In this document: piece after piece, positions 3,789-22,180 of the stretch
Layout: each line of letters starts with the position of its first letter
Position numbering within the stretch: the stretch's first letter is position 1
Assembly: GCF_055900595.2 (NCBI RefSeq)
Contig: NZ_CM148325.1
Strand: one strand, 5' to 3'
DNA length: 64,000 bases
Position numbers and translations under genes: made by a program
The notes under the pieces: generated by a model
The model's database searches: none
Seen by the model: the letters and a program-made list of their open reading frames with translations, nothing else
Told to the model about the DNA's origin: nothing

Positions 3789-3803
3789 TACATGTTGTAG
3801 CAA

Positions 3804-5579: not shown

Positions 5580-5587
5580 CCTTCCTG

Positions 5588-5627: not shown

Positions 5628-6320
5628 CTAGTGATAACCACGCGCGGTCATAAAATCCGTAATCGCTTTTTCTGCATCAACCAGCACCTTTTCCAGTGGC
5701 TGATTAGCATCGATATCAACCAGTTGTGCACCGCCAAAGGTTAACTGTGGCGTTATGGCAATCTTCCTCGCCAGCGATTCCCGTTTATGGTCGGGTTTAC
5801 GCGCGCAGGCAACTTCAAGGTCAACATTGAGTTTGATGACCAGATCAGGTTTATGGCTCGCCATCCAGTGAAACGCTTTACGTTCCTGGCTTGCCAGCCA
5901 TGAGACAAACCGGCCGCCTTCAACGTTAGGCGGGAACACTGTACCATCGTAAGCGCCAGGAATTTGGTCCTGAGGATAACGGTCGGTTAGAACAATTAAC
6001 CCGCGACGACGACAGGCAAGCATATGACGAAAGCGCAGTAAGCGACGGGCGACAAACGCTGTAATTACCAGCGCCGGAACTGGCCCAGGCAATTTTTTTG
6101 CTGTTTTCACCTGATTTCGTTCAATTGTTTTATGTAAGGATTTTCCCATCAACGGTAATTTTGTCACTGCACGACCGACATTTCCGGCCTGTTTTCCTAA
6201 ATGAACTCTTTCGGCAGCACCATATTTTTCGACAACGGTAATGAGATGTTCACACACCGTTGACTTGCCTGAACCATCGCTACCAATAACGGCAATTAAT
6301 GGAGGTGTTATTGACTGCAT
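5628..6320 (-). CDS. yghT: Uncharacterised P-loop ATP-binding protein, NMP-kinase-like fold
   Basis: 230 aa; N-terminal Walker [10 protein letters not shown]; internal LTDRYPQD (DRY-type motif); paralogous to the next two genes. Confidence 0.8.
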
Positions 6321-6493
6321 GAATATATCCTTTAATTTAAATATCCATTAAAAATATTTATTTGGTTAATATGTTTTTATGAAAGCGTAATTCAGGTCAA
6401 TGTCACAATTAACCATTGTCACAATAAGGTTGAACGGATATTCTGAGCACGGACCACGTAATATTCAATACATTATTTGCTGCCGGGTTTTTC

Positions 6494-7207
6494 GTGAATC
6501 AACGTAATATGTCAATAATTAATTCCACGCCAGTGCGTGTTATTGCCATTGTAGGATGTGATGGTTCAGGTAAATCGACCCTCACGGCAAGCCTGGTAAA
6601 TGAACTGGCAGCAAGAATGCCAACAGAACACATTTATCTCGGGCAATCGTCCGGGCGAATTGGCGAATGGATTTCACAGCTCCCTGTTATTGGCGCACCT
6701 TTTGGGCGTTATTTGCGAAGTAAAGCGGCACATGTGCACGAAAAGCCCTTAACACCGCCTGGCAATATTACTGCGCTGGTTATCTATCTGCTTTCCTGCT
6801 GGCGGGCGTACAAGTTTCGCAAAATGTTGTGTAAAAGCCAGCAAGGCTATCTGCTCATCACCGACCGCTACCCGCAGGTTGAAGTGCCGGGTTTTCGCTT
6901 TGATGGCCCGCAATTGGCAAAAACCACGGGCGGTAACGGCTGGATAAAAATGTTAAGGCAGCGCGAGCTGAAGCTGTACCAATGGATGGCGTCTTATTTG
7001 CCCGTATTGTTGATTCGTCTTGGCATTGATGAACAAACCGCGTTTTCGCGTAAACCTGACCATCAACTGGCGGCGTTACAGGAAAAAATCGCCGTTACGC
7101 CGCAACTGACATTCAATGGCGCCGGGATCCTTGAACTGGATGGTCGGCAACCAGCCGATGAAATTATGCAAGCGTCACTACGCGCAATTCACGCCGCGCT
7201 TTCCTGA
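6494..7207 (+). CDS. yghS: Uncharacterised P-loop ATP-binding protein, NMP-kinase-like fold
   Basis: 237 aa; Walker A GCDGSGKST; ITDRYPQ; C-terminal SRKPDH...TPQLTF shared with yghT. Confidence 0.8.
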   Translation: MNQRNMSIINSTPVRVIAIVGCDGSGKSTLTASLVNELAARMPTEHIYLGQSSGRIGEWISQLPVIGAPFGRYLRSKAAHVHEKPLTPPGNITALVIYLLSCWRAYKFRKMLCKSQQGYLLITDRYPQVEVPGFRFDGPQLAKTTGGNGWIKMLRQRELKLYQWMASYLPVLLIRLGIDEQTAFSRKPDHQLAALQEKIAVTPQLTFNGAGILELDGRQPADEIMQASLRAIHAALS

Positions 7208-7238
7208 TCACCAAAATGGATAGGGGATGATTTAACGA

Positions 7239-7997
7239 ATGGATGCACTACAAACACAAACTGTTAATAGTACAACCGTGCCGCAGCCCAACTACATTCC
7301 GGGGCTGATTGCGGTGGTCGGGTGTGATGGCACCGGTAAATCCACGCTGACCACCGACCTGGTGAAATCGCTGCAACAACACTGGCAAACCGAGCGCCGC
7401 TATTTGGGGCTGCTCTCCGGCGAAGACGGCGACAAAATCAAACGATTGCCGTTGGTTGGCGTCTGGCTGGAACGGCGACTGGCGGCCAAATCCTCGAAAA
7501 CCCAAAGCATGAAAACCAAATCTCCAGCGCTATGGGCGGCGGTGATTATGTACTGCTTCTCGCTGCGAAGAATGGCGAATCTACGCAAGGTTCAGCGACT
7601 GGCGCAAAGTGGCGTTCTGGTGGTCAGCGATCGCTTCCCGCAGGCTGAAATTTCGGGCTTTTATTATGACGGACCGGGGATTGGCGTCGAGCGCGCGACC
7701 GGGAAAATCAACCAATTTCTGGCGCAGCGCGAGCGACAGTTATACCAACAAATGGCGCAGTATCGTCCTGAATTAATCATTCGTTTGGGGATTGATATTG
7801 ATACTGCCATCTCCCGCAAGCCTGACCATGACTATGCCGAGCTGCAGGACAAAATCGGCGTCATGTCGACGATTGGCTATAACGGCACAAAAATTCTTGA
7901 GATTGATTCCAGAGCGCCCTACAGCGAAGTGCTGGAACAGGCACAGAAGGCGGTTTCTCTGGTTGCCATCGTTTCTGACCGCCGAAGTTTAACTTAA
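7239..7997 (+). CDS. yghR: Uncharacterised P-loop ATP-binding protein, NMP-kinase-like fold
   Basis: 252 aa; Walker A GCDGTGKST; VSDRFPQ; SRKPDH motif; third paralog. Confidence 0.8.
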   Translation: MDALQTQTVNSTTVPQPNYIPGLIAVVGCDGTGKSTLTTDLVKSLQQHWQTERRYLGLLSGEDGDKIKRLPLVGVWLERRLAAKSSKTQSMKTKSPALWAAVIMYCFSLRRMANLRKVQRLAQSGVLVVSDRFPQAEISGFYYDGPGIGVERATGKINQFLAQRERQLYQQMAQYRPELIIRLGIDIDTAISRKPDHDYAELQDKIGVMSTIGYNGTKILEIDSRAPYSEVLEQAQKAVSLVAIVSDRRSLT

Positions 7998-8042
7998 GGC
8001 TGGCGGGATACTTTTTACTATCAACGATAAGGTCAGGCTGAA

Positions 8043-9392
8043 TTGGCGGGTTTTAACATCAAACATTGGTTTGCAGATGGCGCGTTTCGCACCATTATTC
8101 GCAATAGCGCCTGGTTAGGCTCCAGTAATGTCGTGAGCGCTTTGCTGGGTCTGTTGGCGCTCTCGTGTGCCGGTAAAGGGATGACGCCCGCCATGTTTGG
8201 CGTACTGGTGATTGTGCAATCGTACGCCAAGTCGATCAGCGATTTTATTAAGTTTCAGACATGGCAGTTGGTGGTGCAGTACGGAACGCCAGCCTTGACC
8301 AACAATAATCCGCAGCAATTTCGCAATGTCGTCTCATTTTCCTTCTCGTTGGATATCGTCAGCGGCGCGGTGGCGATTGTCGGCGGCATTGCCTTACTCC
8401 CTTTTCTTTCCCATTCATTAGGTCTGGATGACCAAAGCTTTTGGCTGGCAGCGCTGTATTGCACGCTCATTCCTTCAATGGCTTCCTCCACGCCGACCGG
8501 CATTCTGCGTGCGGTAGATAGCTTCGACTTAATTGCTGTACAGCAGGCGACGAAACCTTTTCTGCGCGCAGCGGGGAGCGTCGTTGCCTGGTATTTTGAC
8601 TTTGGTTTTGCGGGTTTTGTTATTGCCTGGTACGCCTCGAATCTTGTTGGCGGCACCATGTACTGGTGGTTTGCCGCACGTGAATTACGCCGCAGAAATA
8701 TCCATAACGCGTTCAAATTGAATCTGTTTGAGTCTGCCCGACACATCAAAGGCGCGTGGAGTTTTGTCTGGTCAACCAACATTGCCCATTCCATCTGGTC
8801 GGCGCGTAATTCGTGCAGCACAGTGTTGGTGGGGATCGTGTTAGGACCCGCTGCCGCCGGGTTATTTAAAATCGCCATGACATTCTTCGACGCCGCCGGA
8901 ACGCCAGCGGGTTTACTAGGTAAAAGTTTTTACCCAGAGGTGATGCGTTTAGATCCGCGCACCACCAGACCGTGGTTGTTAGGCGTGAAGTCCGGTTTAC
9001 TGGCGGGCGGAATCGGTATTCTGGTGGCGCTCGCGGTGTTGATCGTCGGCAAGCCGCTCATTTCGCTGGTGTTTGGCGTTAAGTATCTCGAAGCGTATGA
9101 CCTGATTCAGGTGATGCTGGGCGCAATTGTGATTTCGATGCTGGGCTTCCCACAGGAGTCATTGCTATTGATGGCGGGAAAACAGCGTGCTTTTCTCGTG
9201 GCGCAAACCATCGCCTCAATCGGCTACATCGTATTGCTGTTCATGTTCTGTCATCTGTTTGGCGTGCTGGGGGCTGCATTTGCTTACTTCGCTGGGCAAT
9301 GTCTGGATGTGGTGCTCTCGCTAATTCCAACCTTAAAGGCATTTTTTCAGCGCCATTCCTTGCTTTATAACGCAGCCGGAGAGAAATCCTGA
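8043..9392 (+). CDS. yghQ: MOP/Wzx-like polysaccharide or lipid flippase family inner-membrane protein
   Basis: Polytopic membrane protein (many hydrophobic helices across 449 codons). Start uncertain: the track uses a TTG at 8043; the first in-frame ATG is at 8181 but would remove the first predicted TM helix. Stop overlaps the next start (TGATG at 9389-9394). Confidence 0.75.
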   Translation: MAGFNIKHWFADGAFRTIIRNSAWLGSSNVVSALLGLLALSCAGKGMTPAMFGVLVIVQSYAKSISDFIKFQTWQLVVQYGTPALTNNNPQQFRNVVSFSFSLDIVSGAVAIVGGIALLPFLSHSLGLDDQSFWLAALYCTLIPSMASSTPTGILRAVDSFDLIAVQQATKPFLRAAGSVVAWYFDFGFAGFVIAWYASNLVGGTMYWWFAARELRRRNIHNAFKLNLFESARHIKGAWSFVWSTNIAHSIWSARNSCSTVLVGIVLGPAAAGLFKIAMTFFDAAGTPAGLLGKSFYPEVMRLDPRTTRPWLLGVKSGLLAGGIGILVALAVLIVGKPLISLVFGVKYLEAYDLIQVMLGAIVISMLGFPQESLLLMAGKQRAFLVAQTIASIGYIVLLFMFCHLFGVLGAAFAYFAGQCLDVVLSLIPTLKAFFQRHSLLYNAAGEKS

Positions 9393-10228
9393 TGATGAGA
9401 AAATATTTCCCGCTTGAGGCTAGCGAGCGTCTATTTGTTGCGATTGAAGAAGATGATGTCGTTGATGCACAGGTCAGTTTGCCGCCGACTATCGCACTAA
9501 GTTGTACCACCGAAATCATCCATGATAATTACGCGTTATGCCTGAAATTCTGGCTGGATGGTGTTAATCGTCAGGAGCTACTGCGTTTAATCCGCAAACA
9601 GGCGAAAGGCGATGAGCTGACGACAGACGAGCGCAAAAAGTATAAATACATGCGAGCGCGCTACAAGCATCTGCGCTTTGCGCAACGGCTGTATTTAAAG
9701 AAGCATCAGGCCGGATTTTTATTCGGCAAAACGACCGTTTTTTTGGGGCGTTTTCAGGACGGCTTTCGTAACGGTAAGAAAAATATTGTGTCGTATTACG
9801 GCAACCTGTTACGGGTTTATTTAAGCTCTCCGGTCTGGTCGTTGGTGAACTATTCATTACGCCATAGCCAGTTAGAAAGCGTAAGCGGTTTTATTGCCTA
9901 TCGGCAAAAGCAAATGCATACCCTGAAAGAGATAATTGCCAAACCGCGACTAACTGGCAGGGAATTTCATGATGTGCGAAAAATCATCAGCCAGCAGGTT
10001 TCTTATTACGACACCCTAAGATCGCTTGATCCTGAAAATAAAGAGGCGTTACAGATTTCCCGCTTCCTCGCCGCCATTAATGGCCTGATGGGGGATAAAC
10101 ACGACGACATGGTGGCGGATGATATGGAAAACCGCCAGTCGTATGATGCACCGATGGCGCTGGATAGCGATATTCGTCAGCGCTTAGAACTGCTGATTTC
10201 GCGTTTCCCACTCTATCCGGAGCAATAA
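9392..10228 (+). CDS. Hypothetical protein (278 aa), translationally coupled between yghQ and a YtfJ-like gene
   Basis: Intact ORF with 1-nt overlaps to both neighbours (yghQ stop / its ATG; its stop / next ATG); no motif I can assign; basic, soluble-looking. Confidence 0.6.
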   Translation: MMRKYFPLEASERLFVAIEEDDVVDAQVSLPPTIALSCTTEIIHDNYALCLKFWLDGVNRQELLRLIRKQAKGDELTTDERKKYKYMRARYKHLRFAQRLYLKKHQAGFLFGKTTVFLGRFQDGFRNGKKNIVSYYGNLLRVYLSSPVWSLVNYSLRHSQLESVSGFIAYRQKQMHTLKEIIAKPRLTGREFHDVRKIISQQVSYYDTLRSLDPENKEALQISRFLAAINGLMGDKHDDMVADDMENRQSYDAPMALDSDIRQRLELLISRFPLYPEQ

Positions 10229-10788
10229 TGCCATCTCGTTGGATTTTCGCTCTGATCATCGCACTCTTAGCGCCAGGCGCGGTGGCACACAATTTCGTCA
10301 CTGGTAAAACGGTTACCCCTGTTTATATCCAGGAAGGCGGTGAGTTGCTTCTGAATAGCGACGACGAAATTCACTACCAAAAGTGGAACAGCACACAGCT
10401 GGCGGGAAAAGTCCGCATTATTCAGTATATCGCCGGGCGTAAGTCGGCGAAGAAAAAGAACTCACTGTTAATTAAAGCGGTTGAAGCGGCAAACTTTCCG
10501 CAGGATCGTTTTCAGCCCACCACCATTGTGAACACCGATGATGCCATCTTTGGTACCGACTATTTTGTCGTTGGCAAAATCGAAAAAAATAAACGCCGCT
10601 ATCCATGGGCGCAATTCGTTATTGACGGCAATGGACAGGGACGTGTTGCCTGGCGCTTGCCGGAGCAGAGTTCAACCATTCTGGTGCTGAATAAAAACGG
10701 GCAAATTCAGTGGGCAAAGGACGGCAGCCTGACGCCGGAAGAGGTAGATCATGTCATTGCGCTGGCGCAGAAGCTGATCAATGAATAA
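10228..10788 (+). CDS. YtfJ-family periplasmic protein
   Basis: 186 aa with N-terminal signal peptide (MPSRWIFALIIALLAPGAVAHNF). Strong resemblance over the whole length to remembered E. coli YtfJ (...KTWNS.QL.GKVR..Q.IAGR.SAK..N..LI.A...A..P.DR.Q.TTIVNTDDAI...YPW.QF..D.NG... QWAKDG.LTPEEV...). Confidence 0.7.
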   Translation: MPSRWIFALIIALLAPGAVAHNFVTGKTVTPVYIQEGGELLLNSDDEIHYQKWNSTQLAGKVRIIQYIAGRKSAKKKNSLLIKAVEAANFPQDRFQPTTIVNTDDAIFGTDYFVVGKIEKNKRRYPWAQFVIDGNGQGRVAWRLPEQSSTILVLNKNGQIQWAKDGSLTPEEVDHVIALAQKLINE

Positions 10789-10818
10789 AAAACTCAAAGG
10801 ATTGAGGGCGTTAGTGAG

Positions 10819-11889
10819 ATGAAGCTGGTTGAACACTACATCATGCGTGGTACGCGCCGTCTGGTGCTGATTATCGTCGGTTTTCTGATCTTTATTTTCG
10901 CCAGCTACTCCGCACAGCGTTATCTGACCGAAGCGGCAAATGGGACATTAGCTCTTGATGTTGTGCTGGATATCGTTTTCTACAAAGTGCTGATTGCACT
11001 GGAGATGCTGTTACCTGTTGGACTATATGCTTCAGTTGGCGTGACGCTAGGGCAAATGTATACCGACTCGGAAATTACCGCTATCTCCGCGGCGGGGGGC
11101 AGTCCGGGACGCTTGTACAAAGCCGTTCTTTATCTGGCGATACCGCTAAGTATTTTTGTCACCCTTCTGTCGATGTATGGTCGTCCGTGGGCTTATGCGC
11201 AGATTTATCAACTGGAGCAACAGTCACAGTCGGAGCTGGATGTTCGCCAGTTGCGGGCAAAGAAATTTAACACTAACGATAACGGACGAATGATCCTTTC
11301 GCAGACGGTTGATCAGGATAATAATCGCCTGACTGACGCGCTGATTTATACTTCTACTGCCAATCGAACCCGCATTTTCCGCGCCCGTTCGGTTGATGTG
11401 GTTGACCCATCACCTGAGAAACCGACCGTTATGTTGCATAACGGGACCGCCTATCTTCTCGATCATCAGGGGCGTGACGACAACGAACAGATCTACCGTA
11501 ATCTGCAATTACATCTGAATCCGCTGGATCAAAGCCCTAACGTCAAACGCAAAGCAAAATCGGTCACGGAGCTGGCGCGCTCCGCCTTTCCTGCCGATCA
11601 TGCCGAACTGCAATGGCGACAAAGCCGTGGCCTGACAGCATTGTTGATGGCGCTGCTGGCCATTTCATTAAGTCGGGTAAAACCGCGGCAAGGGCGATTT
11701 TCAACGTTATTGCCACTGACGTTGCTGTTTATTGCCATTTTTTATGGCGGCGACGTCTGCCGTACGCTGGTGGCTAACGGCGCGATTCCCCTCATTCCTG
11801 GTTTGTGGTTAGTACCCGGACTCATGCTAATGGGCCTGCTGATGCTGGTCGCACGCGACTTCTCTTTGCTGCAGAAATTTTCCCGATGA
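10819..11889 (+). CDS. LptF/LptG-family (YjgP/YjgQ) permease, paralog 1
   Basis: 356 aa; N-terminal 3-TM bundle, central soluble (periplasmic beta-jellyroll-like) region, C-terminal TM bundle with RQGRFS motif reminiscent of LptF/LptG (NPRQGR); located outside the canonical lptFG locus. Confidence 0.75.
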   Translation: MKLVEHYIMRGTRRLVLIIVGFLIFIFASYSAQRYLTEAANGTLALDVVLDIVFYKVLIALEMLLPVGLYASVGVTLGQMYTDSEITAISAAGGSPGRLYKAVLYLAIPLSIFVTLLSMYGRPWAYAQIYQLEQQSQSELDVRQLRAKKFNTNDNGRMILSQTVDQDNNRLTDALIYTSTANRTRIFRARSVDVVDPSPEKPTVMLHNGTAYLLDHQGRDDNEQIYRNLQLHLNPLDQSPNVKRKAKSVTELARSAFPADHAELQWRQSRGLTALLMALLAISLSRVKPRQGRFSTLLPLTLLFIAIFYGGDVCRTLVANGAIPLIPGLWLVPGLMLMGLLMLVARDFSLLQKFSR

Positions 11890-12965
11890 ATGTTTTCAGC
11901 CGCTATTTAATCCGTCATCTCTTTCTCGGTTTTGCCGCCGCCGCAGGGCTATTGCTGCCGCTTTTTACCACCTTCAACCTGATTAACGAACTGGATGATG
12001 TCGGCCCGGGCGGTTATCGCTGGACCCAGGCGGTGCTGGTGGTGCTGATGACCTTACCGCGCACACTGGTCGAACTTTCGCCGTTTATCGCCTTATTGGG
12101 AGGGATTGTCGGCCTGGGGCAACTATCGAAAAACAGTGAGCTTACCGCCATTCGCAGCACGGGGTTTTCTATCTTCCGTATTGCACTGGTGGCGCTGGTT
12201 GCCGGGATATTGTGGACTGTTTCGTTAGGCGCGATAGATGAGTGGGTGGCGTCGCCATTGCAGCAACAGGCGCTGCAAATCAAATCGACTGCCACCGCGT
12301 TGGGGGAGGACGATGACATTACCGGCAATATGCTTTGGGCCAGGCGCGGTAATGAATTTGTGACGGTGAAATCGCTGAACGAGCAGGGCCAGCCTGTGGG
12401 CGTGGAGATATTTCATTATCGCGACGATCTCTCGCTCGAATCCTACATTTTTGCACGCAGTGCCTCCATTGAAGACGACAAAACATGGATCCTGCATGGT
12501 GTGAATCATAAAAAATGGTTGAATGGCAAAGAAACGCTGGAAACATCAGATAATCTTACCTGGCAATCGGCCTTCACCAGTATGAATCTTGAAGAGTTAT
12601 CGATGCCGGGAAATACTTTTTCTGTCCGTCAACTTAATCATTACATCCATTATTTGCAGGAAACTGGGCAACCCAGCAGCGAATACCGCCTTGCACTGTG
12701 GGAAAAACTGGGACAACCCATCCTGACCCTGGCGATGATTTTGCTGGCTGTGCCGTTTACCTTTAGTGCCCCGCGTTCGCCTGGGATGGGTAGCCGTCTC
12801 GCTGTAGGCGTCATCGTGGGCTTACTTACCTGGATCAGCTATCAAATCATGGTCAATCTGGGATTGCTATTTGCGTTGAGCGCACCTGTTACCGCGCTCG
12901 GTTTACCGGTAGCGTTTGTGCTGGTGGCGTTGAGCCTGGTGTATTGGTATGACAGACAACATTAA
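11886..12965 (+). CDS. LptF/LptG-family (YjgP/YjgQ) permease, paralog 2
   Basis: Start set at ATG 11886 (MNVFSRYLIRHLF...), overlapping the upstream stop by 4 nt (ATGA); same TM-soluble-TM architecture as the upstream gene. Confidence 0.75.
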   Translation: MNVFSRYLIRHLFLGFAAAAGLLLPLFTTFNLINELDDVGPGGYRWTQAVLVVLMTLPRTLVELSPFIALLGGIVGLGQLSKNSELTAIRSTGFSIFRIALVALVAGILWTVSLGAIDEWVASPLQQQALQIKSTATALGEDDDITGNMLWARRGNEFVTVKSLNEQGQPVGVEIFHYRDDLSLESYIFARSASIEDDKTWILHGVNHKKWLNGKETLETSDNLTWQSAFTSMNLEELSMPGNTFSVRQLNHYIHYLQETGQPSSEYRLALWEKLGQPILTLAMILLAVPFTFSAPRSPGMGSRLAVGVIVGLLTWISYQIMVNLGLLFALSAPVTALGLPVAFVLVALSLVYWYDRQH

Positions 12966-12999
12966 ACCCGCCGTGGCGCAACACCACAGCGGGCTCACA

Positions 13000-14172
13000 T
13001 TACTGCTTCAGAGTAGCGAACGCTTGAATGATGGCATCAATTTGCTCACGACTGTGGGCAGCGTTTACGCTACAGCGCAGCAGCGTGATGCCTGCAGGCG
13101 CGGCAGGTGGCAGGATAAGATTCACATAAACGCCCAGCGAAATAAGCTCGCGCCAGATGCGTAAACCTTCCTCTTTCGAACCGATTATTACTGGCACTAC
13201 CGGGCTAATATGTGAACTTAACTCATAATCCAGTTTTTGCAGACCGTCATACAGATGGTTGGCATTATCCATCAGCTTTTGCCGCAACTCTGGTTGTGAG
13301 GCAATGGTTCTTAACGACGAGCGCACGGTCGCAATGCAGGACGGAGAAGGAGAGGCGGTAAAAATATACGGGCGGCTGCCGTAGCGCAACACTTCCATCG
13401 CTTCCGAACCGACAGCAAAACCGCCAATCGAGGCCAGACTTTTACTGAAGGTACCAACGATAATATCCACATCATCTTCAACGCCAACGGCTTCAGCCAG
13501 TCCGCGCCCCGTTGCGCCTAACACGCCAAACGAATGCGCTTCATCGACAATCAAATAACCACCGAGACGACGTTTGATATCAACAATTTCCGCCAGCGGC
13601 GCAACGTCACCGAGCATACTGTAGATGCCTTCAACGATGATAATCGCCTCTTTTGCCCGTTCACCGAGGCGAACCATGCGCCGTTCCAGATCTTTAGCAT
13701 CGTTATGGCGGAAACGAATAATTTCCGCGCCACCGAGAGAACAGGCGTCATAAATACTGGCGTGGCTGTCGGCATCCAGTAACACCACGGCGTTATGGTC
13801 GGCAAGTGCGCTGATGACGCCTAAATTAGCGGTATAACCGGTTGAAAAAACGATAGCGGTAGGGCGATTAAAAAACTCGGCGATCTCTTTCTCTAACGCC
13901 AGATGCGGCGCATAACTGCCGTTTGCCATACGAGAACCGGTGGTGCCGGTGCCTTGGGCCGCTAACGCTGCCTGACCTTCGGCGATGGCATCATGATTAA
14001 AGGTTAAACCGAGATAATTATTGGTCCCGGCCAGAATCACTTTTTTATTGCCGATCCGACCTTCGGTGGCGGAATACACTTCATCAATACAGGTGCCAAA
14101 CGGTGTTAACCCGTTGTCACTAAATTGCAGTCGCTCGCCAGCAAGGCGCGCATATTTATCGTATAGCCCCAT
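13000..14172 (-). CDS. PLP-dependent alpha-oxoamine synthase (serine palmitoyltransferase / BioF / Kbl family)
   Basis: 390 aa; family-typical N-terminal GSRMANGSY.....LE.E.A.F, and PLP-lysine motif ...IVGTFSKSLASIGGF...; start overlaps the stop of the upstream carrier-protein gene. Confidence 0.85.
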   Translation of the reverse strand: MGLYDKYARLAGERLQFSDNGLTPFGTCIDEVYSATEGRIGNKKVILAGTNNYLGLTFNHDAIAEGQAALAAQGTGTTGSRMANGSYAPHLALEKEIAEFFNRPTAIVFSTGYTANLGVISALADHNAVVLLDADSHASIYDACSLGGAEIIRFRHNDAKDLERRMVRLGERAKEAIIIVEGIYSMLGDVAPLAEIVDIKRRLGGYLIVDEAHSFGVLGATGRGLAEAVGVEDDVDIIVGTFSKSLASIGGFAVGSEAMEVLRYGSRPYIFTASPSPSCIATVRSSLRTIASQPELRQKLMDNANHLYDGLQKLDYELSSHISPVVPVIIGSKEEGLRIWRELISLGVYVNLILPPAAPAGITLLRCSVNAAHSREQIDAIIQAFATLKQ

Positions 14173-14420
14173 TATTTATTCTCCAGCCATGGAAGTAGTG
14201 TTTCCATTAATTGCGCAGGGGTTTTGACATCCAGCAGAATATTAATAGGAATGGAAATATCGAATCTGTCTTCCAGCATCATTAAGAGATCCATCACTTT
14301 GATCGACTCCAGGCCAAGATCGTTGACGAGATCGCTGTCGGGCTTAATTTCCACACCGTTTTCGACCAAATCCTGTAAACAGGAAAGGATGTAATCCATT
14401 ACTATTTCACGATTTACCAT
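14172..14420 (-). CDS. Acyl carrier protein (phosphopantetheine-binding)
   Basis: 82 aa, acidic, with DLGLESIKVMDLLMMLEDRF resembling the ACP DSL/ESx attachment-site helix. Confidence 0.8.
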   Translation of the reverse strand: MVNREIVMDYILSCLQDLVENGVEIKPDSDLVNDLGLESIKVMDLLMMLEDRFDISIPINILLDVKTPAQLMETLLPWLENK

Positions 14421-14451
14421 AGAAACGTTAACACACCTTTAAACAAGACAA

Positions 14452-15366
14452 TCAAAATAGCCCGTTGCGTAATGCGTGTTCCAGGCTAATCCCGGGAAAC
14501 CAATTAATATCTTCAGAAATACGGTTATTACTTGCTGACCAGTCGGCGTGGGTTAATTCACGGATTTTCGAGCGGGTCAGCATAGGTTCTTTACCTGCCA
14601 GGCGACTCAACGCGGTACTGATATCCGCAAGGCAGGTGAGTACCGACAGAGGAATACCAACCATTCGAACGGAACCGCAACGGGCGTCGGCGGCAAGTTG
14701 CTGTACGCGTTGCCAGTCATAGCCGCCGGCGACGCCATCGCATAATTCATAGGTTTGCGTCTGTACAGTTTCGGCGCTTAACCACTGCCCCACGGCTTGC
14801 GCGAAATCGGTGACGTGCAGGAAAGAGAGCTGTGTATCTGGCGCACCAAGTCGTGGCAGCAGGCCGCGCAGCATCCAGTCAAACAGCGGTTTTAACTCTT
14901 TATCGCCGGGACCATACACGGCTGTCGGGCGAAAAATGCCCAGCGTAATTTCGTCAGCCATTGCGGTCAGTCGTTGTTCGGCGACGTGTTTGGAATTTGC
15001 GTACCAGGAGAGTTCGGGATGACGCGCCGCCAGCGAAGAGATAAACAGAAAACGTTGGCAAAAGCCGCTCTCTTTTGCCGCTTGCATCAGGCGCAGGCTG
15101 CCGTCAACGTTACAGCGGGTAAAAATCTCTTCTTTGTGTCCGCGCACTTGTCCGGCGCAATGGACCACCGCGCTGGCTCCGGCAACCAGTTCGCTAAGCG
15201 AATGTGTATCTTCCAGCGAACCGCGCACCCAGATGAGATTATCATTGACGTGAGCGCGGGCAGTACGCGTCAATGCGCGAACGTGAAAGCCGCGGGCGAG
15301 CAGGTTATCGATAATATATTTACCGATAAACCCGGTAGCGCCCGTCACCGCGACAGTTTGATTCAT
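14452..15366 (-). CDS. NAD(P)-dependent epimerase/dehydratase-family (extended SDR) reductase
   Basis: 304 aa with N-terminal Rossmann motif VAVTGATGFIGKYI; 4-nt overlap with the upstream AMP-ligase gene. Confidence 0.8.
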   Translation of the reverse strand: MNQTVAVTGATGFIGKYIIDNLLARGFHVRALTRTARAHVNDNLIWVRGSLEDTHSLSELVAGASAVVHCAGQVRGHKEEIFTRCNVDGSLRLMQAAKESGFCQRFLFISSLAARHPELSWYANSKHVAEQRLTAMADEITLGIFRPTAVYGPGDKELKPLFDWMLRGLLPRLGAPDTQLSFLHVTDFAQAVGQWLSAETVQTQTYELCDGVAGGYDWQRVQQLAADARCGSVRMVGIPLSVLTCLADISTALSRLAGKEPMLTRSKIRELTHADWSASNNRISEDINWFPGISLEHALRNGLF

Positions 15367-17111
15367 GCCAGGGATTCCTGCACATGAAGGCTTGCAGCAT
15401 AAGCCTTCTGATAACGTTTTTTCGCTTCCGCACGGGCAGGCTTGCCGGAGGACGTTCGGGGAATACTGTGGGGCGGCAACAGATCGATAGCCGCGGTTAC
15501 GCCAAATTCGCTTTGGATCCGTGCTGCCAGTGCGTGGATAAGCTGCCCACGACGTTCTTCGTCGCTGATCCTACACTGGATCTGCAGAATGATTTTTTCC
15601 TGGGCGGTAACAAAAGCAATCGCATCGCCAGAATGAATTTCCGGTTCCTGTTCCGCAATATATTCAATATCCTGCGGCCAGATATTACGGCCACGAATAA
15701 TAATCAGATCTTTAATGCGTCCGGTGACATACAGATAACCGTCCAGCAGATAACCGAGGTCGCCGGTATCTAACCAGCCCGTCGCGGCAATCTCGTCTTG
15801 CGAAACCTGGTCGCCAAAGTAACCGCTCATCAGGCTGGGGCCGGAGATGCAAATATGGCCTACCACACGTTCCGCGACCGGCATACCTGCTTCATTGCGG
15901 ATTTCAATGCCATGTTCCGGCAACGCTTTACCGCAGTTGACGAAAGTCGATACGGCGCGTGTTTCAGCACCCGGCGCGACGGCTTTGCCCTGATATTCAA
16001 GGATGTCGCGATCCACTTCGTTAACCACAACCCCGGAGGCTTCATCAGAGAAGCTGACAGCCAGCGCATTTTCTGCCAGTCCGTAGCACGGCATGAACGT
16101 TTTATCGTCAAAGTTAACCTGACGGAAACATTCAGCGAATTGATGGAGTTGTTCTGCGGAGATGGGTTCTGCACCAATACCAGCGACGCGCCAGCAGGAA
16201 AGATCCAGTTCAGCGAGATCTTTTTCATTCACGCGGCGCTGGCACAATTCATAGCCAAACGGCGGCGCAACGGAAACGGTGCCGCGATTTTTACTGATCA
16301 ATTTAAGCCATTGCAGAGGACGCATGGCAAAATCCTGAGTGCGCAAATAATCTACTGAAAGCTGCGTGGCGACGGGGGTCAGGAGAAAGCCGACCAGTCC
16401 CATATCATGGTAGAAAGGCAGCCAGGAGACGCAGCGGTCGCCAGGGCGTAATTTAATGCCATCGTGGCTTATAGCACGTAGATTAGCCATCACTTCGCGA
16501 TGGGTGATAATGACGCCACGGGGAAAACGGGTGCTGCCGGAGGTGTACTGGAGGTAGGCGATATCGTTCGGAACTGGATGCTGGAGTGCAACATCGGCTT
16601 CCGGTAATGCCTTAAACCAGGCGTGGCTTAAAACATGTAATTCGGGGTTGTTATGCGTAGCGGCATTGACCAGTGGCAACCACTCATCACCAGTGATAAT
16701 GGCTGCGGGCTGGCAACTTGCCAGTAAACCCTGCAGTTTGGCGCTCCAGGAATCCCGCTGACCGATGCCCATTGGAATCGCCAACGGGACGGCGACTAAG
16801 CCGGCATACTGGCAGGAAAAAAAAGCCTCTACGAACCCGCTACTGGTTTCGGCAATCAGCGCCACGCGATCGCCTTTTTTCAGGTTCAGCGATAACAACC
16901 GCTTCGCACCAGCTTCGGCACGCGCTTTTAACGTCTGATATTCCAGTTGATCTTCAAGTTGGCAACGTCTGTCATAAAAATTCATTCCGGCGCTACTCAG
17001 AGCGGCGTAGTCCAAAGCATCAACCAGCGTTGGAAAATCGGCATAGCGCATAGGTAGGGAATGCGTAAAGATTTTATTAGACATATACACCACGAAAAAA
17101 TTGGATATCAA
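15363..17111 (-). CDS. AMP-dependent synthetase/ligase (fatty-acyl-AMP ligase / acyl-ACP synthetase-like)
   Basis: 582 aa with the adenylate-forming signature YTSGSTRFPRGV (consensus YTSGSTGxPKGV) and downstream GYG/ETG-type core motifs; exact start (17111 vs 17084) uncertain. Confidence 0.85.
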   Translation of the reverse strand: MISNFFVVYMSNKIFTHSLPMRYADFPTLVDALDYAALSSAGMNFYDRRCQLEDQLEYQTLKARAEAGAKRLLSLNLKKGDRVALIAETSSGFVEAFFSCQYAGLVAVPLAIPMGIGQRDSWSAKLQGLLASCQPAAIITGDEWLPLVNAATHNNPELHVLSHAWFKALPEADVALQHPVPNDIAYLQYTSGSTRFPRGVIITHREVMANLRAISHDGIKLRPGDRCVSWLPFYHDMGLVGFLLTPVATQLSVDYLRTQDFAMRPLQWLKLISKNRGTVSVAPPFGYELCQRRVNEKDLAELDLSCWRVAGIGAEPISAEQLHQFAECFRQVNFDDKTFMPCYGLAENALAVSFSDEASGVVVNEVDRDILEYQGKAVAPGAETRAVSTFVNCGKALPEHGIEIRNEAGMPVAERVVGHICISGPSLMSGYFGDQVSQDEIAATGWLDTGDLGYLLDGYLYVTGRIKDLIIIRGRNIWPQDIEYIAEQEPEIHSGDAIAFVTAQEKIILQIQCRISDEERRGQLIHALAARIQSEFGVTAAIDLLPPHSIPRTSSGKPARAEAKKRYQKAYAASLHVQESLA

Positions 17112-17454
17112 AAATAAAATGACAATAATGCGGTGGATTATATAGGCATAAAAGATAAATGAGATAGTATTTTCATCAGTGTGAAAATGAACATTGATTT
17201 AAATAATGAGTTTGAGTTTTTTGTTTTTATTGTGAATGATATTTAATTTATGAATGTATTAAGAAGAAGCCTTGTCCGGTCGCCTTAAATCGACAAAAGG
17301 CATTGTGGCGCTTCTGTGTAGTCTCTGACCTTATCGTAATCATTAATAAATGCTATTTATTCGTCGTTTGTATTCATTGGGTTGATTATTAAGGTGCCGT
17401 TCGTTGCTGTTGCAACCTGTTTGTCACCGTTAATTATTTGTTACCCACAGAACT

Positions 17455-18597
17455 ATGGAATGCGATCTGCTGATGATTAAAATTGAAAAAGTAATTAATA
17501 AAAATGACCTTAAGGCATTTATCGCTTTTCCGTCATCACTTTATCCCGACGATCCAAACTGGATACCCCCTTTATTCATTGAACGCAACGAGCATTTGTC
17601 TGCGAAAAATCCGGGGACGGACCATATCATCTGGCAGGCGTGGGTGGCAAAAAAAGCCGGGCAGATAGTTGGGCGAATTACCGCGCAAATCGATACCTTG
17701 CACCGTGAGCGTTACGGTGAAGATACCGGTCATTTCGGCATGATTGACGCCATTGATGATCCGCAGGTTTTTGCCGCGTTGTTTGGCGCAGCGGAAGCGT
17801 GGTTGAAGTCACAAGGTGCAAGTAAGATCAGCGGTCCTTTCAGCCTGAATATCAATCAGGAAAGCGGATTACTGATTGAAGGTTTCGATACACCACCCTG
17901 TGCGATGATGCCGCACGGTAAACCGTGGTATGCCGCGCATATTGAACAATTGGGTTATCACAAAGGCATTGATTTACTAGCGTGGTGGATGCAGCGAACC
18001 GATCTCACTTTCTCTCCGGCGCTAAAAAAACTGATGGATCAGGTGCGTAAGAAGGTGACCATTCGCTGCATCAATCGCCAGCGGTTTGCCGAAGAGATGC
18101 AGATCCTGCGTGAGATTTTCAACTCTGGCTGGCAGCACAACTGGGGATTTGTGCCGTTTACCGAACATGAATTCGCGACTATGGGCGATCAACTTAAATA
18201 TCTGGTGCCGGACGATATGATCTACATCGCTGAGATTGATTCTGCACCCTGCGCGTTTATTGTTGGCTTGCCAAACATCAACGAGGCGATTGCCGATCTG
18301 AACGGATCGCTCTTTCCCTTCGGCTGGGCAAAATTGCTGTGGCGTTTAAAAGTCAGCGGTGTGCGAACTGCGCGAGTACCGCTGATGGGCGTGCGGGACG
18401 AGTATCAGTTTAGCCGCATCGGCCCGGTGATTGCGCTGTTATTGATTGAAGCCTTACGCGATCCGTTTGCCCGCCGGAAGATCGATGCGCTGGAAATGTC
18501 ATGGATCCTCGAAACCAATACAGGCATGAATAACATGCTGGAACGCATTGGGGCAGAGCCGTACAAGCGTTACCGATTGTATGAAAAGCAGATTTGA
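17455..18597 (+). CDS. yghO: YghO-family protein, intact; possible GNAT-like N-acyltransferase
   Basis: 380-aa intact ORF where K-12 (as I recall) carries only a yghO pseudogene next to glcC; acyltransferase assignment is my inference from fold-like sequence features, not a motif I can pin down. Start could also be Met at 17473. Confidence 0.65.
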   Translation: MECDLLMIKIEKVINKNDLKAFIAFPSSLYPDDPNWIPPLFIERNEHLSAKNPGTDHIIWQAWVAKKAGQIVGRITAQIDTLHRERYGEDTGHFGMIDAIDDPQVFAALFGAAEAWLKSQGASKISGPFSLNINQESGLLIEGFDTPPCAMMPHGKPWYAAHIEQLGYHKGIDLLAWWMQRTDLTFSPALKKLMDQVRKKVTIRCINRQRFAEEMQILREIFNSGWQHNWGFVPFTEHEFATMGDQLKYLVPDDMIYIAEIDSAPCAFIVGLPNINEAIADLNGSLFPFGWAKLLWRLKVSGVRTARVPLMGVRDEYQFSRIGPVIALLLIEALRDPFARRKIDALEMSWILETNTGMNNMLERIGAEPYKRYRLYEKQI

Positions 18598-18603
18598 TGG
18601 CAG

Positions 18604-19368
18604 TCACCCCTGCTTCATCTCCAGCGGCACCGCCGAGCGAATCAAATGGTGGCCTTCCAGCTCGATATCGTGGAGATTCTTTTTCACGGTCCGCACATGA
18701 TCGCGTGCTGCGCGCTGGGCGACGTGCGGCAGCCGCTGCAACACCGCGTTGTAGATCCGCGCATGCTGGCGATCGATCTGCTTTTTTTGCTGTGGTCGAT
18801 GGTAGAGATTATTTACGCTGGCAAACACTGAATTAAACATCAGATCGGTCAATGATTGCAGCGTAAACACCAACACCTGATTGTGAGAAGCCTGACAAAT
18901 GGCGAGATGGAAAGCGTGATCCAACTGCGCATGTTCGATCAGCGAAATCTCTTTGTTGTTCTCACTGGCGGCGAGCATTTTTTCATAACAGCGGGTTATC
19001 ACAACAAAATCAGCCTGGGTTCCCAGCGTTGCCGCAAGCCTTGCCGATTCCCCCTCCAGCAATGCGCGAACGTCGAGCAGATCGTACAGCGTTCGCGGCT
19101 GCGTGCTGAACAGATGAATTAGCGGGCTGGTATCCTGCACCCGATTAAGCCGTGCGACACGAGAATCGCGACCCTGCGCTGTTTCAATAATCCCGCGCCC
19201 GCGCAGCACGGTCAGCCCTTCACGCAGTGCGGAGCGTGAGAAGCCGAGCTTTTCACACAGTCGACGTTCCGAGGGAAGCGGCTGACCGACCTTCAGTACG
19301 CCGTCGATAATTAACCGTTCGATACTCTCTGCAACCACTTCGCAAATAGGGCGACGTTCATCTTTCAT
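18604..19368 (-). CDS. glcC: GntR-family transcriptional activator of the glycolate operon
   Basis: Start placed at internal Met (MKDERRPICEVVAES..., ATG complement 19366-19368) giving 254 aa; N-terminal wHTH (GntR) and C-terminal FCD-like domain; divergent from glcD. Confidence 0.9.
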   Translation of the reverse strand: MKDERRPICEVVAESIERLIIDGVLKVGQPLPSERRLCEKLGFSRSALREGLTVLRGRGIIETAQGRDSRVARLNRVQDTSPLIHLFSTQPRTLYDLLDVRALLEGESARLAATLGTQADFVVITRCYEKMLAASENNKEISLIEHAQLDHAFHLAICQASHNQVLVFTLQSLTDLMFNSVFASVNNLYHRPQQKKQIDRQHARIYNAVLQRLPHVAQRAARDHVRTVKKNLHDIELEGHHLIRSAVPLEMKQG

Positions 19369-19618
19369 TCCCGGACCTCGTGCACAGGTAGGACCAATTT
19401 TTCTGTTCTTAACTCGCAAAACACGCACATCACGTAAGTGATTATGTTACATCAATTTAACATTAAGTTAACCAAGGCAAGGTCACAGAGCTGGAAAAAA
19501 AATGGTCTGACCGGTAGCTAAAGAGATAGACGAAAACGAAAAGCCCGCTTAATAACTGTTCACAGAAGCAGCGCGCAAAAATCAGCTGCCACACAACACA
19601 ACAAAGCGAAGCCTACTC
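19369..19618. promoter_or_regulatory. Divergent glcC / glcDEFGBA promoter-operator region
   Basis: 250-bp intergenic region between divergently oriented glcC and glcD; promoter elements not individually mapped here. Confidence 0.5.
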
Positions 19619-22170: not shown

Positions 22171-22180
22171 GGAGCAGGCT

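What the first reader, a model, noticed from the sequence alone, without database searches (positions are those of the whole stretch)
9392..18597. About 9 kb of accessory DNA between yghQ and glcC that appears to be deleted in K-12
From my memory of the K-12 map, yghQ is followed directly by the yghO pseudogene and glcC. Here that interval holds nine intact genes (an unknown 278-aa protein, a YtfJ-like protein, two LptF/G-like permeases, the four lipid genes and intact yghO). This suggests the K-12 state is a deletion scar and that the ancestral locus is a functional unit.
Basis: partly seen in the sequence, partly recalled or inferred. Interest (0 to 1): 0.55.

Follow-up and report, generated by a model that had tools for sequence, protein, structure and literature searches.

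The report
K-12 deleted E. coli's sphingolipid locus
The stretch is part of a 13-gene locus for making and exporting a sphingolipid-type membrane lipid that about three quarters of sequenced E. coli carry and that K-12 lost through an IS5-linked 8.4-kb deletion; both the locus and the IS5 are already in the literature.

Summary
The window (100% identical to E. coli KY1497) has nine intact genes between yghQ and glcC. In K-12 MG1655 a complete 1,195-bp IS5 (insH9) replaces window 9112-17494 (8,383 bp). That removes the last 94 codons of yghQ, eight whole genes and the first 13 codons of yghO. So yghQ is not "followed directly" by yghO, and most of yghO survives in K-12.

"Accessory" is the wrong word. 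At least 80% of the segment is present in 4,063 of 5,426 complete E. coli genomes. It sits at the same pitB-glcC site in other Escherichia species, and all genes are under purifying selection. The K-12 scar occurs in 346 genomes; all 60 listed look like K-12 derivatives. Other lineages lost the locus independently (O157:H7, an IS1 lineage).

The functional unit is larger than proposed: 13 genes, yghT to yghO, that stay together across Enterobacterales. It is the E. coli sphingolipid locus:
- ceramide synthesis: AasR, AcpR, Spt, CerR, YghO/bCerS;
- export: LptF2/LptG2 and the MOP flippase YghQ;
- uncharacterised genes: three thymidylate-kinase-fold proteins, a CHAD-fold protein and a YtfJ-like protein.

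The core enzymes were tested in BL21 and the locus has been drawn for UTI89, so this counts as already known. The lipid product and its head group are not known.

The parts
5628..6320 (-). yghT: P-loop kinase with a thymidylate-kinase-like fold, paralogue of YghS and YghR; retained in K-12
   Evidence: NCBIfam dTMP-kinase models score about 25 bits against a cut-off of 83. Paralogy is shown in alignment A2. The gene stays with the locus in 20+ Enterobacterales loci.
6494..7207 (+). yghS: second thymidylate-kinase-fold paralogue and first gene of the + strand operon; retained in K-12
   Evidence: A weak promoter-like site lies at 6416-6444.
7239..7997 (+). yghR: third thymidylate-kinase-fold paralogue, with a low-confidence insert at residues 56-100; retained in K-12
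8043..9392 (+). yghQ: full-length (449 aa) MOP-superfamily flippase candidate. K-12 keeps codons 1-355; a K-12-specific C>T makes codon 356 a stop (CAG>TAG)
   Evidence: MOP flippase model NF007773, E 1.4e-8, spanning residues 18-436. K-12 breakpoint at 9111/9112. 32% identity to a gene in a Caulobacteraceae sphingolipid locus.
9112..17494 (.). The 8,383 bp that K-12 MG1655 lacks, replaced there by a 1,195-bp IS5 (insH9)
   Evidence: blastn of NC_000913.3 3124000-3140000 against the window. Junction sequences. Annotation.
9392..10228 (+). 278-aa all-helical protein with a divergent CHAD-domain fold; its start overlaps the yghQ stop
10228..10788 (+). YtfJ-family protein with an N-terminal signal-peptide-like sequence (probably periplasmic)
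   Evidence: TIGR01626 scores 210.8 bits against a cut-off of 151. N-terminus is MPSRWIFALIIALLAPGAVA.
10819..11889 (+). lptF2: LptF paralogue, a permease of a putative sphingolipid extractor
   Evidence: TIGR04407 scores 317 bits. Only 29% identical to housekeeping LptF b4261. The Caulobacter LptF2 is required for sphingolipid export (bioRxiv 10.64898/2026.04.12.717747).
11886..12965 (+). lptG2: LptG paralogue, overlapping the end of lptF2 by 4 nt
   Evidence: TIGR04408 scores 307 bits. 28% identical to housekeeping LptG b4262.
12963..12997 (.). 16-bp-stem G+C-rich hairpin between the two convergent operons (candidate bidirectional terminator)
   Evidence: it is the longest stem in the scan.
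13000..14172 (-). spt: serine palmitoyltransferase
   Evidence: NF047599 scores 595.8 bits against a cut-off of 500. The BL21 orthologue ECD_02854 makes 3-oxo-sphinganine and prefers acyl-AcpR as substrate (PMC9386255).
14172..14420 (-). acpR: specialised acyl carrier protein
   Evidence: ACP models match below their cut-offs. BL21 ECD_02853 carries 4'-phosphopantetheine (PMC9386255).
14452..15366 (-). cerR/epi: NAD-dependent SDR, candidate reductase for 3-keto-(dihydro)ceramide
   Evidence: SDR/epimerase models match below their cut-offs. Named epi ECD_02852 in PMC9386255. 34% identity to a Caulobacteraceae homologue.
15363..17051 (-). aasR: fatty acyl-AMP ligase-type acyl-AcpR synthetase
   Evidence: NF006624 scores 869 bits against a cut-off of 600. 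BL21 ECD_02851 acylates its cognate AcpR (PMC9386255).
17052..17454 (.). AT-rich divergent control region between aasR and yghO (G+C about 0.35); deleted in K-12
   Evidence: Composition profile, window 17000-17599 = 0.352. K-12 right breakpoint at 17494/17495.
17455..18597 (+). yghO: candidate bacterial ceramide synthase (N-acyltransferase, 'aca'/bCerS). K-12 keeps codons 14-380 without the native start or promoter
   Evidence: No Pfam or NCBIfam hit. 42% identity to a gene in a Caulobacteraceae sphingolipid locus. Equated with CC_1154 in PMC9386255.

Best explanation
Window 5628-18597 is the E. coli sphingolipid locus. It is an ancestral, near-core module of 13 genes.

Proposed pathway:
1. 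AasR loads a free fatty acid onto the dedicated carrier protein AcpR.
2. Spt condenses acyl-AcpR with serine to give 3-oxo-sphinganine.
3. YghO (bCerS-type N-acyltransferase) adds the second acyl chain.
4. CerR reduces the 3-keto group, giving dihydroceramide.
5. The MOP-family protein YghQ is the candidate flippase.
6. LptF2/LptG2, which have no ATPase of their own and probably borrow the housekeeping LptB, extract the lipid from the inner membrane for delivery to the outer membrane.
7. Three thymidylate-kinase-fold proteins (YghT, YghS, YghR), a CHAD-fold protein and a periplasmic YtfJ-like protein probably build or handle a phosphorylated head group.

How K-12 differs. In the K-12 lineage an IS5-associated deletion removed 8,383 bp (window 9112-17494). 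The mechanism was either recombination between two IS5 copies or an IS5-adjacent deletion. The remnants are the orphan 'y-genes' yghT, yghS, yghR, a truncated yghQ and a promoterless, 5'-truncated yghO.

Shown versus inferred. Shown here: the breakpoints, the distribution, the conservation as a module and the purifying selection. Shown in the literature: activity of the BL21 Spt, AcpR and AasR. Inferred by homology to Caulobacter: steps 3-6. Speculative: step 7.
For: Deletion in K-12:
- blastn maps MG1655 to window 738-9111 and 17495-23640, with IS5LO in between.
- The flanks are TTAG|IS5|TTAA, which are not identical.
- The K-12 junction is found in 346 genomes, and all 60 listed appear to be K-12 derivatives by strain name or genome size.

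Ancestral and near-core:
- 4,063 of 5,426 genomes hold at least 80% of the segment, and 4,032 hold the whole 18-kb region in one piece.
- It is intact in ST131 O25b:H4, B/BL21, strain W, O55:H7, O111 and APEC O2:K1.
- It sits at the same pitB-glcC site in E. whittamii and other Escherichia species genomes.
- E. albertii has a homologue of the 278-aa protein at 89% identity.
- Against E. whittamii, dS is 0.13-0.84 for locus genes and 0.27-0.36 for pitB, glcC and glcD.

Functional module:
- All 13 genes co-occur, with rearranged blocks, in Citrobacter, Pseudocitrobacter, Hafnia, Sodalis, Serratia, Mangrovibacter, Pluralibacter, Rosenbergiella and Pantoea. A subset is present in Pseudomonas.
- dN/dS is 0.02-0.32 in three comparisons.
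- Overlapping or closely abutting start and stop codons suggest translational coupling.

Biochemical identity:
- Spt and AasR score above their curated NCBIfam cut-offs.
- BL21 SPT, AcpR and AasR are active, and yghO = aca and ECD_02852 = epi are assigned by homology (PMC9386255).
- Caulobacter LptF2/G2 are required for sphingolipid export and bind LptB, and the E. coli UTI89 locus is drawn alongside (bioRxiv 10.64898/2026.04.12.717747).
- LptF2 and LptG2 are 29% and 28% identical to housekeeping LptF and LptG.
Against: - No sphingolipid made natively by E. coli is reported in the papers I could read. BL21 carrying empty vectors, or SPT alone, showed no 3-oxo-sphinganine (PMC9386255), so the locus may be silent under laboratory conditions.
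- YghO, CerR, YghQ and LptF2/G2 of E. coli have not been tested directly.
- YghO matches no Pfam or NCBIfam model.
- The head-group genes differ from Caulobacter's: CpgB is an LCB5/DAG-kinase-type enzyme (PMC10331486), and no such gene is among the 13 here. The final product is therefore unknown.
- The locus was lost repeatedly: in K-12, in O157:H7 (296 genomes) and in an IS1 lineage (22 genomes). It is dispensable in some niches.
- One junction detail is unexplained. K-12 has T where every sampled intact allele has C, immediately left of IS5.
Confidence: 0.85

Rival explanations
1. The 8-9 kb is a horizontally acquired island inserted in non-K-12 strains, and K-12 shows the original empty site.
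For: The locus is patchy across Enterobacterales and its gene blocks are rearranged between genera. Several genes in the middle (lptG2, the CHAD-like gene, the YtfJ-like gene, yghQ) have higher dS than the flanks, which could reflect recombination or imported alleles.
Against: K-12 has truncated yghQ and yghO with an IS5 exactly between them and non-matching 4-bp flanks; an empty site would have neither. The K-12 remnants yghT, yghS, yghR and yghQ' belong to the same conserved module. The intact locus is at the same site in other Escherichia species. G+C matches the surrounding chromosome.
Confidence: 0.02
2. The locus is functional but makes something other than a sphingolipid. Candidates are an LPS or polysaccharide-linked modification, or another alpha-oxoamine-derived lipid or signal, as the automatic names ('lipopolysaccharide biosynthesis protein', 'LPS export permease LptF/LptG', 'dTMP kinase') would suggest.
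For: PGAP names are. LptF2 and LptG2 pass the LptF and LptG equivalog cut-offs. Alpha-oxoamine synthases include the CqsA and BioF types (lower-ranked hits). No native E. coli sphingolipid is reported.
Against: Spt scores 596 bits on the serine palmitoyltransferase model, against 219 on the CqsA-type model and 333 on BioF. The BL21 enzyme makes 3-oxo-sphinganine from serine and acyl-AcpR (PMC9386255). The five-gene ceramide set is syntenic with Caulobacteraceae. The housekeeping lptFG genes are elsewhere and only 28-29% identical. The YghR/S/T scores are far below the dTMP-kinase cut-off.
Confidence: 0.07
3. The locus is a cryptic relic in E. coli: conserved in sequence but transcriptionally silent and on its way to being lost. 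On this view the K-12 deletion had no phenotypic consequence.
For: Empty-vector BL21 makes no detectable 3-oxo-sphinganine, and SPT alone does not change the lipid profile. This implies that chromosomal acpR and aasR are not expressed in LB-type culture (PMC9386255). There are at least three independent IS-linked losses. The control region is AT-rich, of the kind often silenced by H-NS (inference).
Against: dN/dS is 0.02-0.3 for all 13 genes, including between species. About 75% of complete genomes retain the locus with all ORFs intact, and it is retained across genera. This pattern indicates selection for function in natural habitats. Silence in the laboratory is compatible with conditional expression.
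Confidence: 0.1

Closest known systems
Caulobacter crescentus sphingolipid locus (CC_1152-CC_1168 / CCNA_01212-01226): Spt, AcpR, AasR, CerR, bCerS, LptF2/LptG2/LptC2, flippase candidate CC_1166, CpgABC
   Same: It has the same five-gene route to dihydroceramide (AasR, AcpR, Spt, CerR/epi, bCerS/aca). A paired LptF/LptG paralogue is encoded in the locus without its own ATPase. A flippase candidate is encoded next to them.
   Different: No LptC2 and no CpgA/B/C-type head-group genes are present. E. coli instead has three thymidylate-kinase-fold paralogues, a CHAD-fold protein and a YtfJ-like protein. Protein identities to a Caulobacteraceae locus are only 32-53%. A native lipid product is known for Caulobacter (ceramide phosphoglycerates) but not for E. 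coli.
E. coli BL21(DE3) ECD_02850-ECD_02854 (Padilla-Gomez et al. 2022, PMC9386255), and the UTI89 locus drawn in Uchendu et al. 2026
   Same: This is the same locus in another strain (B-strain DNA is 97.1% identical over the K-12-missing segment). SPT, AcpR and AasR have been biochemically characterised there.
   Different: Those papers cover the five ceramide genes and, for UTI89, the LptF2/G2 pair. I found no published treatment of yghT/S/R, the CHAD-fold gene or the YtfJ-like gene as part of the unit. I also found no statement that the K-12 y-genes are remnants of an IS5 deletion, although my literature search was limited to open-access holdings.
IS-associated deletions in E. coli K-12 (IS5 copy insH9 / IS5LO at yghO)
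   Same: A complete IS5 sits at the junction, and both neighbouring genes are truncated. The copy is catalogued among the 11 IS5 copies of BW25113 as inserted in yghO (PMC11677980).
   Different: That catalogue treats it as a simple insertion in yghO. Comparison with intact genomes shows that 8.4 kb is missing beside it and that the 4-bp flanks differ (TTAG and TTAA).
LptB2FG lipopolysaccharide extractor (housekeeping lptF b4261 / lptG b4262)
   Same: The two-gene permease architecture, protein lengths and family membership are the same.
   Different: Identity is only 28-29%. The pair is encoded in a lipid-synthesis locus, not next to pepA. It is dispensable (absent from K-12). By analogy with Caulobacter, the substrate is inferred to be a sphingolipid rather than LPS.

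Membership tests
Bacterial (proteobacterial, Caulobacter-type) ceramide synthesis pathway | Serine palmitoyltransferase (PLP-dependent alpha-oxoamine synthase specific for serine plus a long-chain acyl thioester) | tested here: met
   NCBIfam NF047599 scores 595.8 bits against a cut-off of 500, well above the BioF, Kbl and CqsA models. Activity of the BL21 orthologue is shown in PMC9386255.
Bacterial (proteobacterial, Caulobacter-type) ceramide synthesis pathway | Dedicated ACP gene immediately upstream of spt, plus a dedicated acyl-ACP synthetase (AasR) | tested here: met
   acpR (14172-14420) abuts spt. aasR scores 869 bits on NF006624 against a cut-off of 600. The cognate AasR/AcpR pair is active in PMC9386255.
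Bacterial (proteobacterial, Caulobacter-type) ceramide synthesis pathway | bCerS-type N-acyltransferase and CerR-type reductase | tested here: inconclusive
   YghO is 42% and the SDR 34% identical to genes in a Caulobacteraceae spt locus, and both are assigned as aca and epi in PMC9386255. YghO hits no Pfam or NCBIfam model, and the SDR scores only below curated cut-offs. No activity data exist for the E. coli proteins.
Bacterial (proteobacterial, Caulobacter-type) ceramide synthesis pathway | Ceramide or sphingolipid detectable in the organism | not testable with these tools
   This needs lipidomics. Empty-vector BL21 gave no detectable 3-oxo-sphinganine (PMC9386255).
Sphingolipid-specific LptF2/LptG2 extractor (Uchendu et al. 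2026) | Paired LptF and LptG paralogues encoded inside the sphingolipid locus and distinct from the housekeeping pair | tested here: met
   TIGR04407 scores 317 bits and TIGR04408 307 bits. Identity to b4261 and b4262 is 29% and 28%. The pair is adjacent to spt.
Sphingolipid-specific LptF2/LptG2 extractor (Uchendu et al. 2026) | No dedicated ABC ATPase in the locus; the complex uses housekeeping LptB | tested here: inconclusive
   None of the 13 genes is an ABC ATPase. YghR/S/T have a thymidylate-kinase fold. Interaction with LptB cannot be tested here.
IS5-associated deletion | Complete IS at the novel joint, flanking genes truncated, and no matching target-site duplication | tested here: met
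   IS5LO is 1,195 bp. yghQ loses 94 codons and yghO loses 13. The flanks are TTAG and TTAA.
CHAD domain (PF05235; polyphosphate-binding helical domain) | Match to the family sequence profile | tested here: not met
   There is no Pfam hit, even at E <= 10, other than two spurious ones, and no NCBIfam hit.
CHAD domain (PF05235; polyphosphate-binding helical domain) | CHAD fold (two four-helix bundles) | tested here: met
Thymidylate (dTMP) kinase, the PGAP name for YghS and YghT | Score above the curated equivalog cut-off | tested here: not met

The most novel reading that the evidence does not exclude
Most wild E. coli, and many other Enterobacterales, may be able to make an outer-membrane sphingolipid with a head group unlike the Caulobacter ceramide phosphoglycerates. 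On this reading the head group is built or handled by three membrane-associated thymidylate-kinase-fold kinases (YghT, YghS, YghR), a CHAD-fold (polyphosphate-binding-type) protein and a periplasmic YtfJ-like protein. It might be a multiply phosphorylated ceramide. This chemistry would have gone unseen because K-12 deleted the pathway and other laboratory strains keep it silent.
Probability: 0.3. Interest if true: 0.65.

Novelty: already known. Interest (0 to 1): 0.3.

Why it matters
K-12 is the reference for E. coli lipid biology. It lacks a conserved envelope-lipid pathway that about three quarters of sequenced E. coli retain.

This explains why five K-12 'y-genes' (yghO, yghQ, yghR, yghS, yghT) have stayed orphans. 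Phenotypes reported for K-12 yghQ concern a truncated remnant. Current automatic names are also misleading: 'lptF', 'lptG', 'dTMP kinase' and 'lipopolysaccharide biosynthesis protein'.

The core of this is already in the bacterial sphingolipid literature. The open part is the native product, how the locus is regulated, and what the kinase-fold and CHAD-fold genes do.

Tried and rejected
- Island gained versus deletion: rejected, because the flanking genes are truncated around the IS5 and the locus sits at the same site in other Escherichia species.
- YghR/S/T as homologues of the Caulobacter ceramide kinase CpgB: rejected. CpgB is an LCB5/DAG-kinase-type enzyme, whereas YghR has a thymidylate-kinase fold.
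- YghR/S/T as the missing ABC ATPase for LptF2/G2: rejected on fold.
- The 278-aa protein as an LptC2 equivalent: rejected. It is all-helical and CHAD-like, not a beta-jellyroll.
- Sequence searches of the PDB with YghR, YghO and the YtfJ-like protein found nothing.
- Pfam found nothing for YghO or the 278-aa protein.
- The IS1 scar seen in FDAARGOS_1279 as the main non-K-12 loss class: it occurs in only 22 genomes. About 700 genomes without the full segment remain unclassified; 266 of them match nothing in window 5000-23000.
- The promoter and terminator consensus scan was no richer than shuffled sequence. Only the 12963-12997 hairpin stands out.
- Olea-Ozuna 2021 (Environ Microbiol) was not available to read.

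Full report
**1. What is in the window**

The window is E. coli chromosome. An 18-kb query (window 5000-23000) is 100% identical to strain KY1497 and 96-98% identical to thousands of other complete genomes. ORF listing and RefSeq annotation of the identical record give this order:
- pitB (4080-5579 +)
- yghT (5628-6320 -)
- yghS (6494-7207 +)
- yghR (7239-7997 +)
- yghQ (8043-9392 +, 449 aa)
- a 278-aa hypothetical protein (9392-10228 +)
- a YtfJ-family protein (10228-10788 +)
- 'lptF' (10819-11889 +)
- 'lptG' (11886-12965 +)
- spt (13000-14172 -)
- an ACP (14172-14420 -)
- an SDR/epimerase (14452-15366 -)
- a fatty acyl-AMP ligase (15363-17051 -)
- yghO (17455-18597 +)
- glcC (18604-19368 -), then glcDEF

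**2. The K-12 state**

MG1655 (NC_000913.3) aligns to window 738-9111 and to window 17495-23640. Between those blocks it has the annotated 1,195-bp IS5LO/insH9. So K-12 lacks window 9112-17494, which is 8,383 bp:
- the last 281 nt (94 codons) of yghQ;
- eight complete genes;
- the aasR-yghO control region;
- the first 40 nt (13 codons) of yghO.

The junctions read ...CCTGATTTAG|GGAAGGTGCG (IS5) and (IS5) ...CACCTTCC|TTAATAAAAATG. The 4-bp flanks, TTAG and TTAA, both fit the IS5 target preference (own knowledge of IS5). They are not a duplication of each other. That is what one expects after recombination between two IS5 copies or an IS5-adjacent deletion, and not after a simple insertion.

The coordinates 9392-18597 are shifted relative to the real breakpoints.

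One detail remains unexplained. K-12 has T where the window and every sampled intact allele has C (TCAG, codon CAG). The K-12 yghQ remnant therefore ends in TAG exactly at the IS5 end.

**3. Distribution**

At least 80% of the K-12-missing segment is present in 4,063 of 5,426 complete RefSeq E. coli genomes. Another 213 have part of it, and 1,150 have none.

Carriers include B/BL21, W, O55:H7, O111, O145, APEC O2:K1:H5 and ST131 O25b:H4, where all 13 genes are annotated as intact.

The exact K-12 yghQ'::IS5 junction occurs in 346 genomes. All 60 listed appear to be K-12 derivatives by name or genome size, for example MG1655, C600, J53, DH5alpha, DH1, NCM3722, HMS174 and RV308; a few carry field-type source labels.

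Other losses are independent:
- O157:H7 has pitB truncated at window 5315 by IS remnants that lead into the nleB/nleE island. This junction is in 296 genomes.
- An IS1 deletion from yghS to upstream of yghO is in 22 genomes.
- 266 genomes match nothing in window 5000-23000.

RefSeq is biased towards laboratory and outbreak strains, so these are counts, not population frequencies.

**4. Ancestral, not accessory**

A scan of one genome per GTDB species with Spt as query found the locus at the same pitB...glcC position in E. whittamii and three further GTDB-separated Escherichia species genomes (two labelled Escherichia sp., one labelled E. coli). E. albertii has an 89%-identical homologue of the 278-aa protein.

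G+C is mostly 0.46-0.57, as in the flanks. The exceptions are two short AT-rich intergenic stretches: 0.35 between aasR and yghO, and about 0.42 between yghT and yghS.

Against E. whittamii, dS of the locus genes (0.13-0.84) brackets that of pitB, glcC and glcD (0.27-0.36). dN/dS is 0.03-0.15.

K-12 therefore carries a lineage-specific deletion of an old resident locus.

**5. The unit is 13 genes**

tblastn of all proteins against the fetched loci shows that all 13 genes occur together, in rearranged blocks and different chromosomal contexts. The genes are yghT, yghS, yghR, yghQ, the 278-aa gene, the YtfJ-like gene, lptF2, lptG2, spt, acpR, the SDR gene, aasR and yghO. The genera are Citrobacter amalonaticus and C. 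youngae, Pseudocitrobacter, Hafnia, Sodalis, Serratia, Mangrovibacter, Pluralibacter, Rosenbergiella and Pantoea. Some Pseudomonas carry a subset: the kinase-like genes, lptF2/G2 and the five ceramide genes.

All 13 genes are under purifying selection against ST131, E. whittamii and C. amalonaticus, with dN/dS of 0.02-0.32.

Gene layout suggests three transcription units:
- a + strand operon, yghS through lptG2, with overlapping or tightly spaced start and stop codons;
- a convergent - strand operon, aasR-SDR-acpR-spt, separated from the first by a 16-bp-stem hairpin at 12963-12997;
- divergent single genes, yghT and yghO.

So the K-12 'y-genes' yghT, yghS, yghR, yghQ' and 'yghO are the two stumps of this module.

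**6. What it does**

*Scores.* Spt scores 595.8 bits on the NCBIfam serine palmitoyltransferase equivalog (cut-off 500). The ligase scores 869 bits on the fatty acyl-AMP ligase model (cut-off 600).

*Experiments on the BL21 orthologues.* Padilla-Gomez et al. 2022 (PMC9386255) showed the following:
- ECD_02853 is a phosphopantetheinylated ACP (AcpR).
- ECD_02851 (AasR) acylates it.
- ECD_02854 (SPT) prefers acyl-AcpR and makes 3-oxo-sphinganine.
- ECD_02852 (epi) and yghO/ECD_02850 (aca) are assigned by homology as the reductase and the N-acyltransferase needed for dihydroceramide.

In a Caulobacteraceae locus the homologues are 53% (Spt), 39% (ACP), 34% (SDR), 43% (AasR), 42% (YghO) and 32% (YghQ) identical.

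*Export.* Uchendu, Isom and Klein (bioRxiv 10.64898/2026.04.12.717747) showed that Caulobacter LptF2 and LptG2 are encoded in the sphingolipid locus. They form a complex, bind the housekeeping LptB, and become essential when anionic sphingolipid is made. Their Figure 2B draws the E. coli UTI89 operons.

Here the two permeases pass the LptF and LptG model cut-offs. They are only 29% and 28% identical to the real LptF and LptG of E. coli, which lie next to pepA. No ABC ATPase is encoded in the locus.

YghQ is a MOP-superfamily protein. It is the obvious flippase candidate, analogous to CC_1166 (PMC11324152).

**7. The uncharacterised part**

*Comparison with Caulobacter.* The Caulobacter ceramide kinase CpgB belongs to a different family, LCB5/DAG kinase (PMC10331486).

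*Inference (not shown).* These five proteins build or handle a phosphorylated head group different from Caulobacter's.

**8. Caveats**

No native E. coli sphingolipid is reported in what I could read. BL21 with empty vectors, or expressing SPT alone, showed no 3-oxo-sphinganine. This implies that the chromosomal locus is silent in standard culture. Repeated IS-linked losses show that it is dispensable in some lineages.

**9. Verdict**

Four corrections apply:
- The breakpoints are 9112 and 17494, and an IS5 sits in the gap.
- The DNA is near-core, not accessory.
- The unit runs from yghT to yghO.
- The 'four lipid genes' are a sphingolipid pathway.

The locus and its core enzymology are published, and the IS5 at yghO is catalogued (PMC11677980). 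As a discovery this is therefore already known. The residual interest lies in the unknown product, the regulation and the head-group genes.

Noticed in passing
window 9108 (K-12 left junction): K-12 reads GATTTAG|IS5, whereas the window and every sampled intact allele read GATTCAGG. This K-12-specific C>T turns yghQ codon 356 (CAG) into TAG and creates a YTAR-type IS5 target. It may be a pre-existing nonsense SNP or a by-product of the rearrangement; this is unresolved.
   Followed up: partly
window 10213-10228: The 278-aa allele here is 4 codons longer than the common 274-aa E. coli allele. In the Escherichia sp. loci L006 and L009 the ORF stops after ...RFPL; in this window that codon is a sense codon. 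A minority of database clusters share the 278-aa form.
   Followed up: partly
window 8043-12965 compared with L007: Against E. whittamii, synonymous divergence is uneven along the locus: lptG2 0.84, the CHAD-like gene 0.69, the YtfJ-like gene 0.61 and yghQ 0.52, against 0.13-0.46 for the other locus genes and about 0.3 for the flanks. This suggests a recombined or old allelic segment in the middle of the + strand operon.
   Followed up: no
window 4080-5579 (pitB); loci L010, L011, L012, L014, L016, L024: A pitB phosphate-transporter homologue (75-85% identical) lies next to yghT in Citrobacter, Pseudocitrobacter and Hafnia too, although glcC and glcD do not. pitB may travel with the module, which would fit phosphate-rich head-group chemistry.
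   Followed up: partly
window 10819-12965 and 5628-7207: RefSeq/PGAP names the paralogues 'lptF' and 'lptG' (LPS export permeases) and names YghS and YghT 'dTMP kinase'. The first pair passes the equivalog cut-offs despite being only 28-29% identical to the real genes. The second pair scores far below the cut-off. These annotations are likely to mislead.
   Followed up: yes
protein P0032; hit H100: One E. coli protein cluster is a 280-aa fusion of most of the CHAD-like protein with GspM (Pfam PF04612). This points to yet another deletion, joining this locus to the downstream type II secretion genes in some strain.
   Followed up: no
L015 and L025 (Serratia sp. M24T3): This genome has two spt-acpR copies on different contigs. 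One sits in a full 13-gene locus. The other is an spt-acpR pair with no other module gene detected within the 10-kb flanks.
   Followed up: no
K-12 yghQ (b2983), literature: A chlorhexidine-adaptation study reported clusters of 'SNVs' (10 nonsynonymous, 2 frameshift) in yghQ and in yhiS of K-12 (PMC8170033). Both genes abut IS5 copies, so read-mapping artefacts at IS junctions are a plausible cause. The ΔyghQ phenotype reported there concerns a truncated remnant gene.
   Followed up: no
window 642-817, 26061-26282, 45996-46034, 58888-59030: Rfam hits outside the finding: naRNA4/REP-type repeats (642-817), C0719 sRNA (26061-26282, between glcB and glcA), a JUMPstart element (45996-46034) and isrN (58888-59030). 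The ORF after glcA (28509-33086) is very long, and the window probably then runs into type II secretion genes and a polysaccharide cluster (from memory of the K-12 map; not checked).
   Followed up: no
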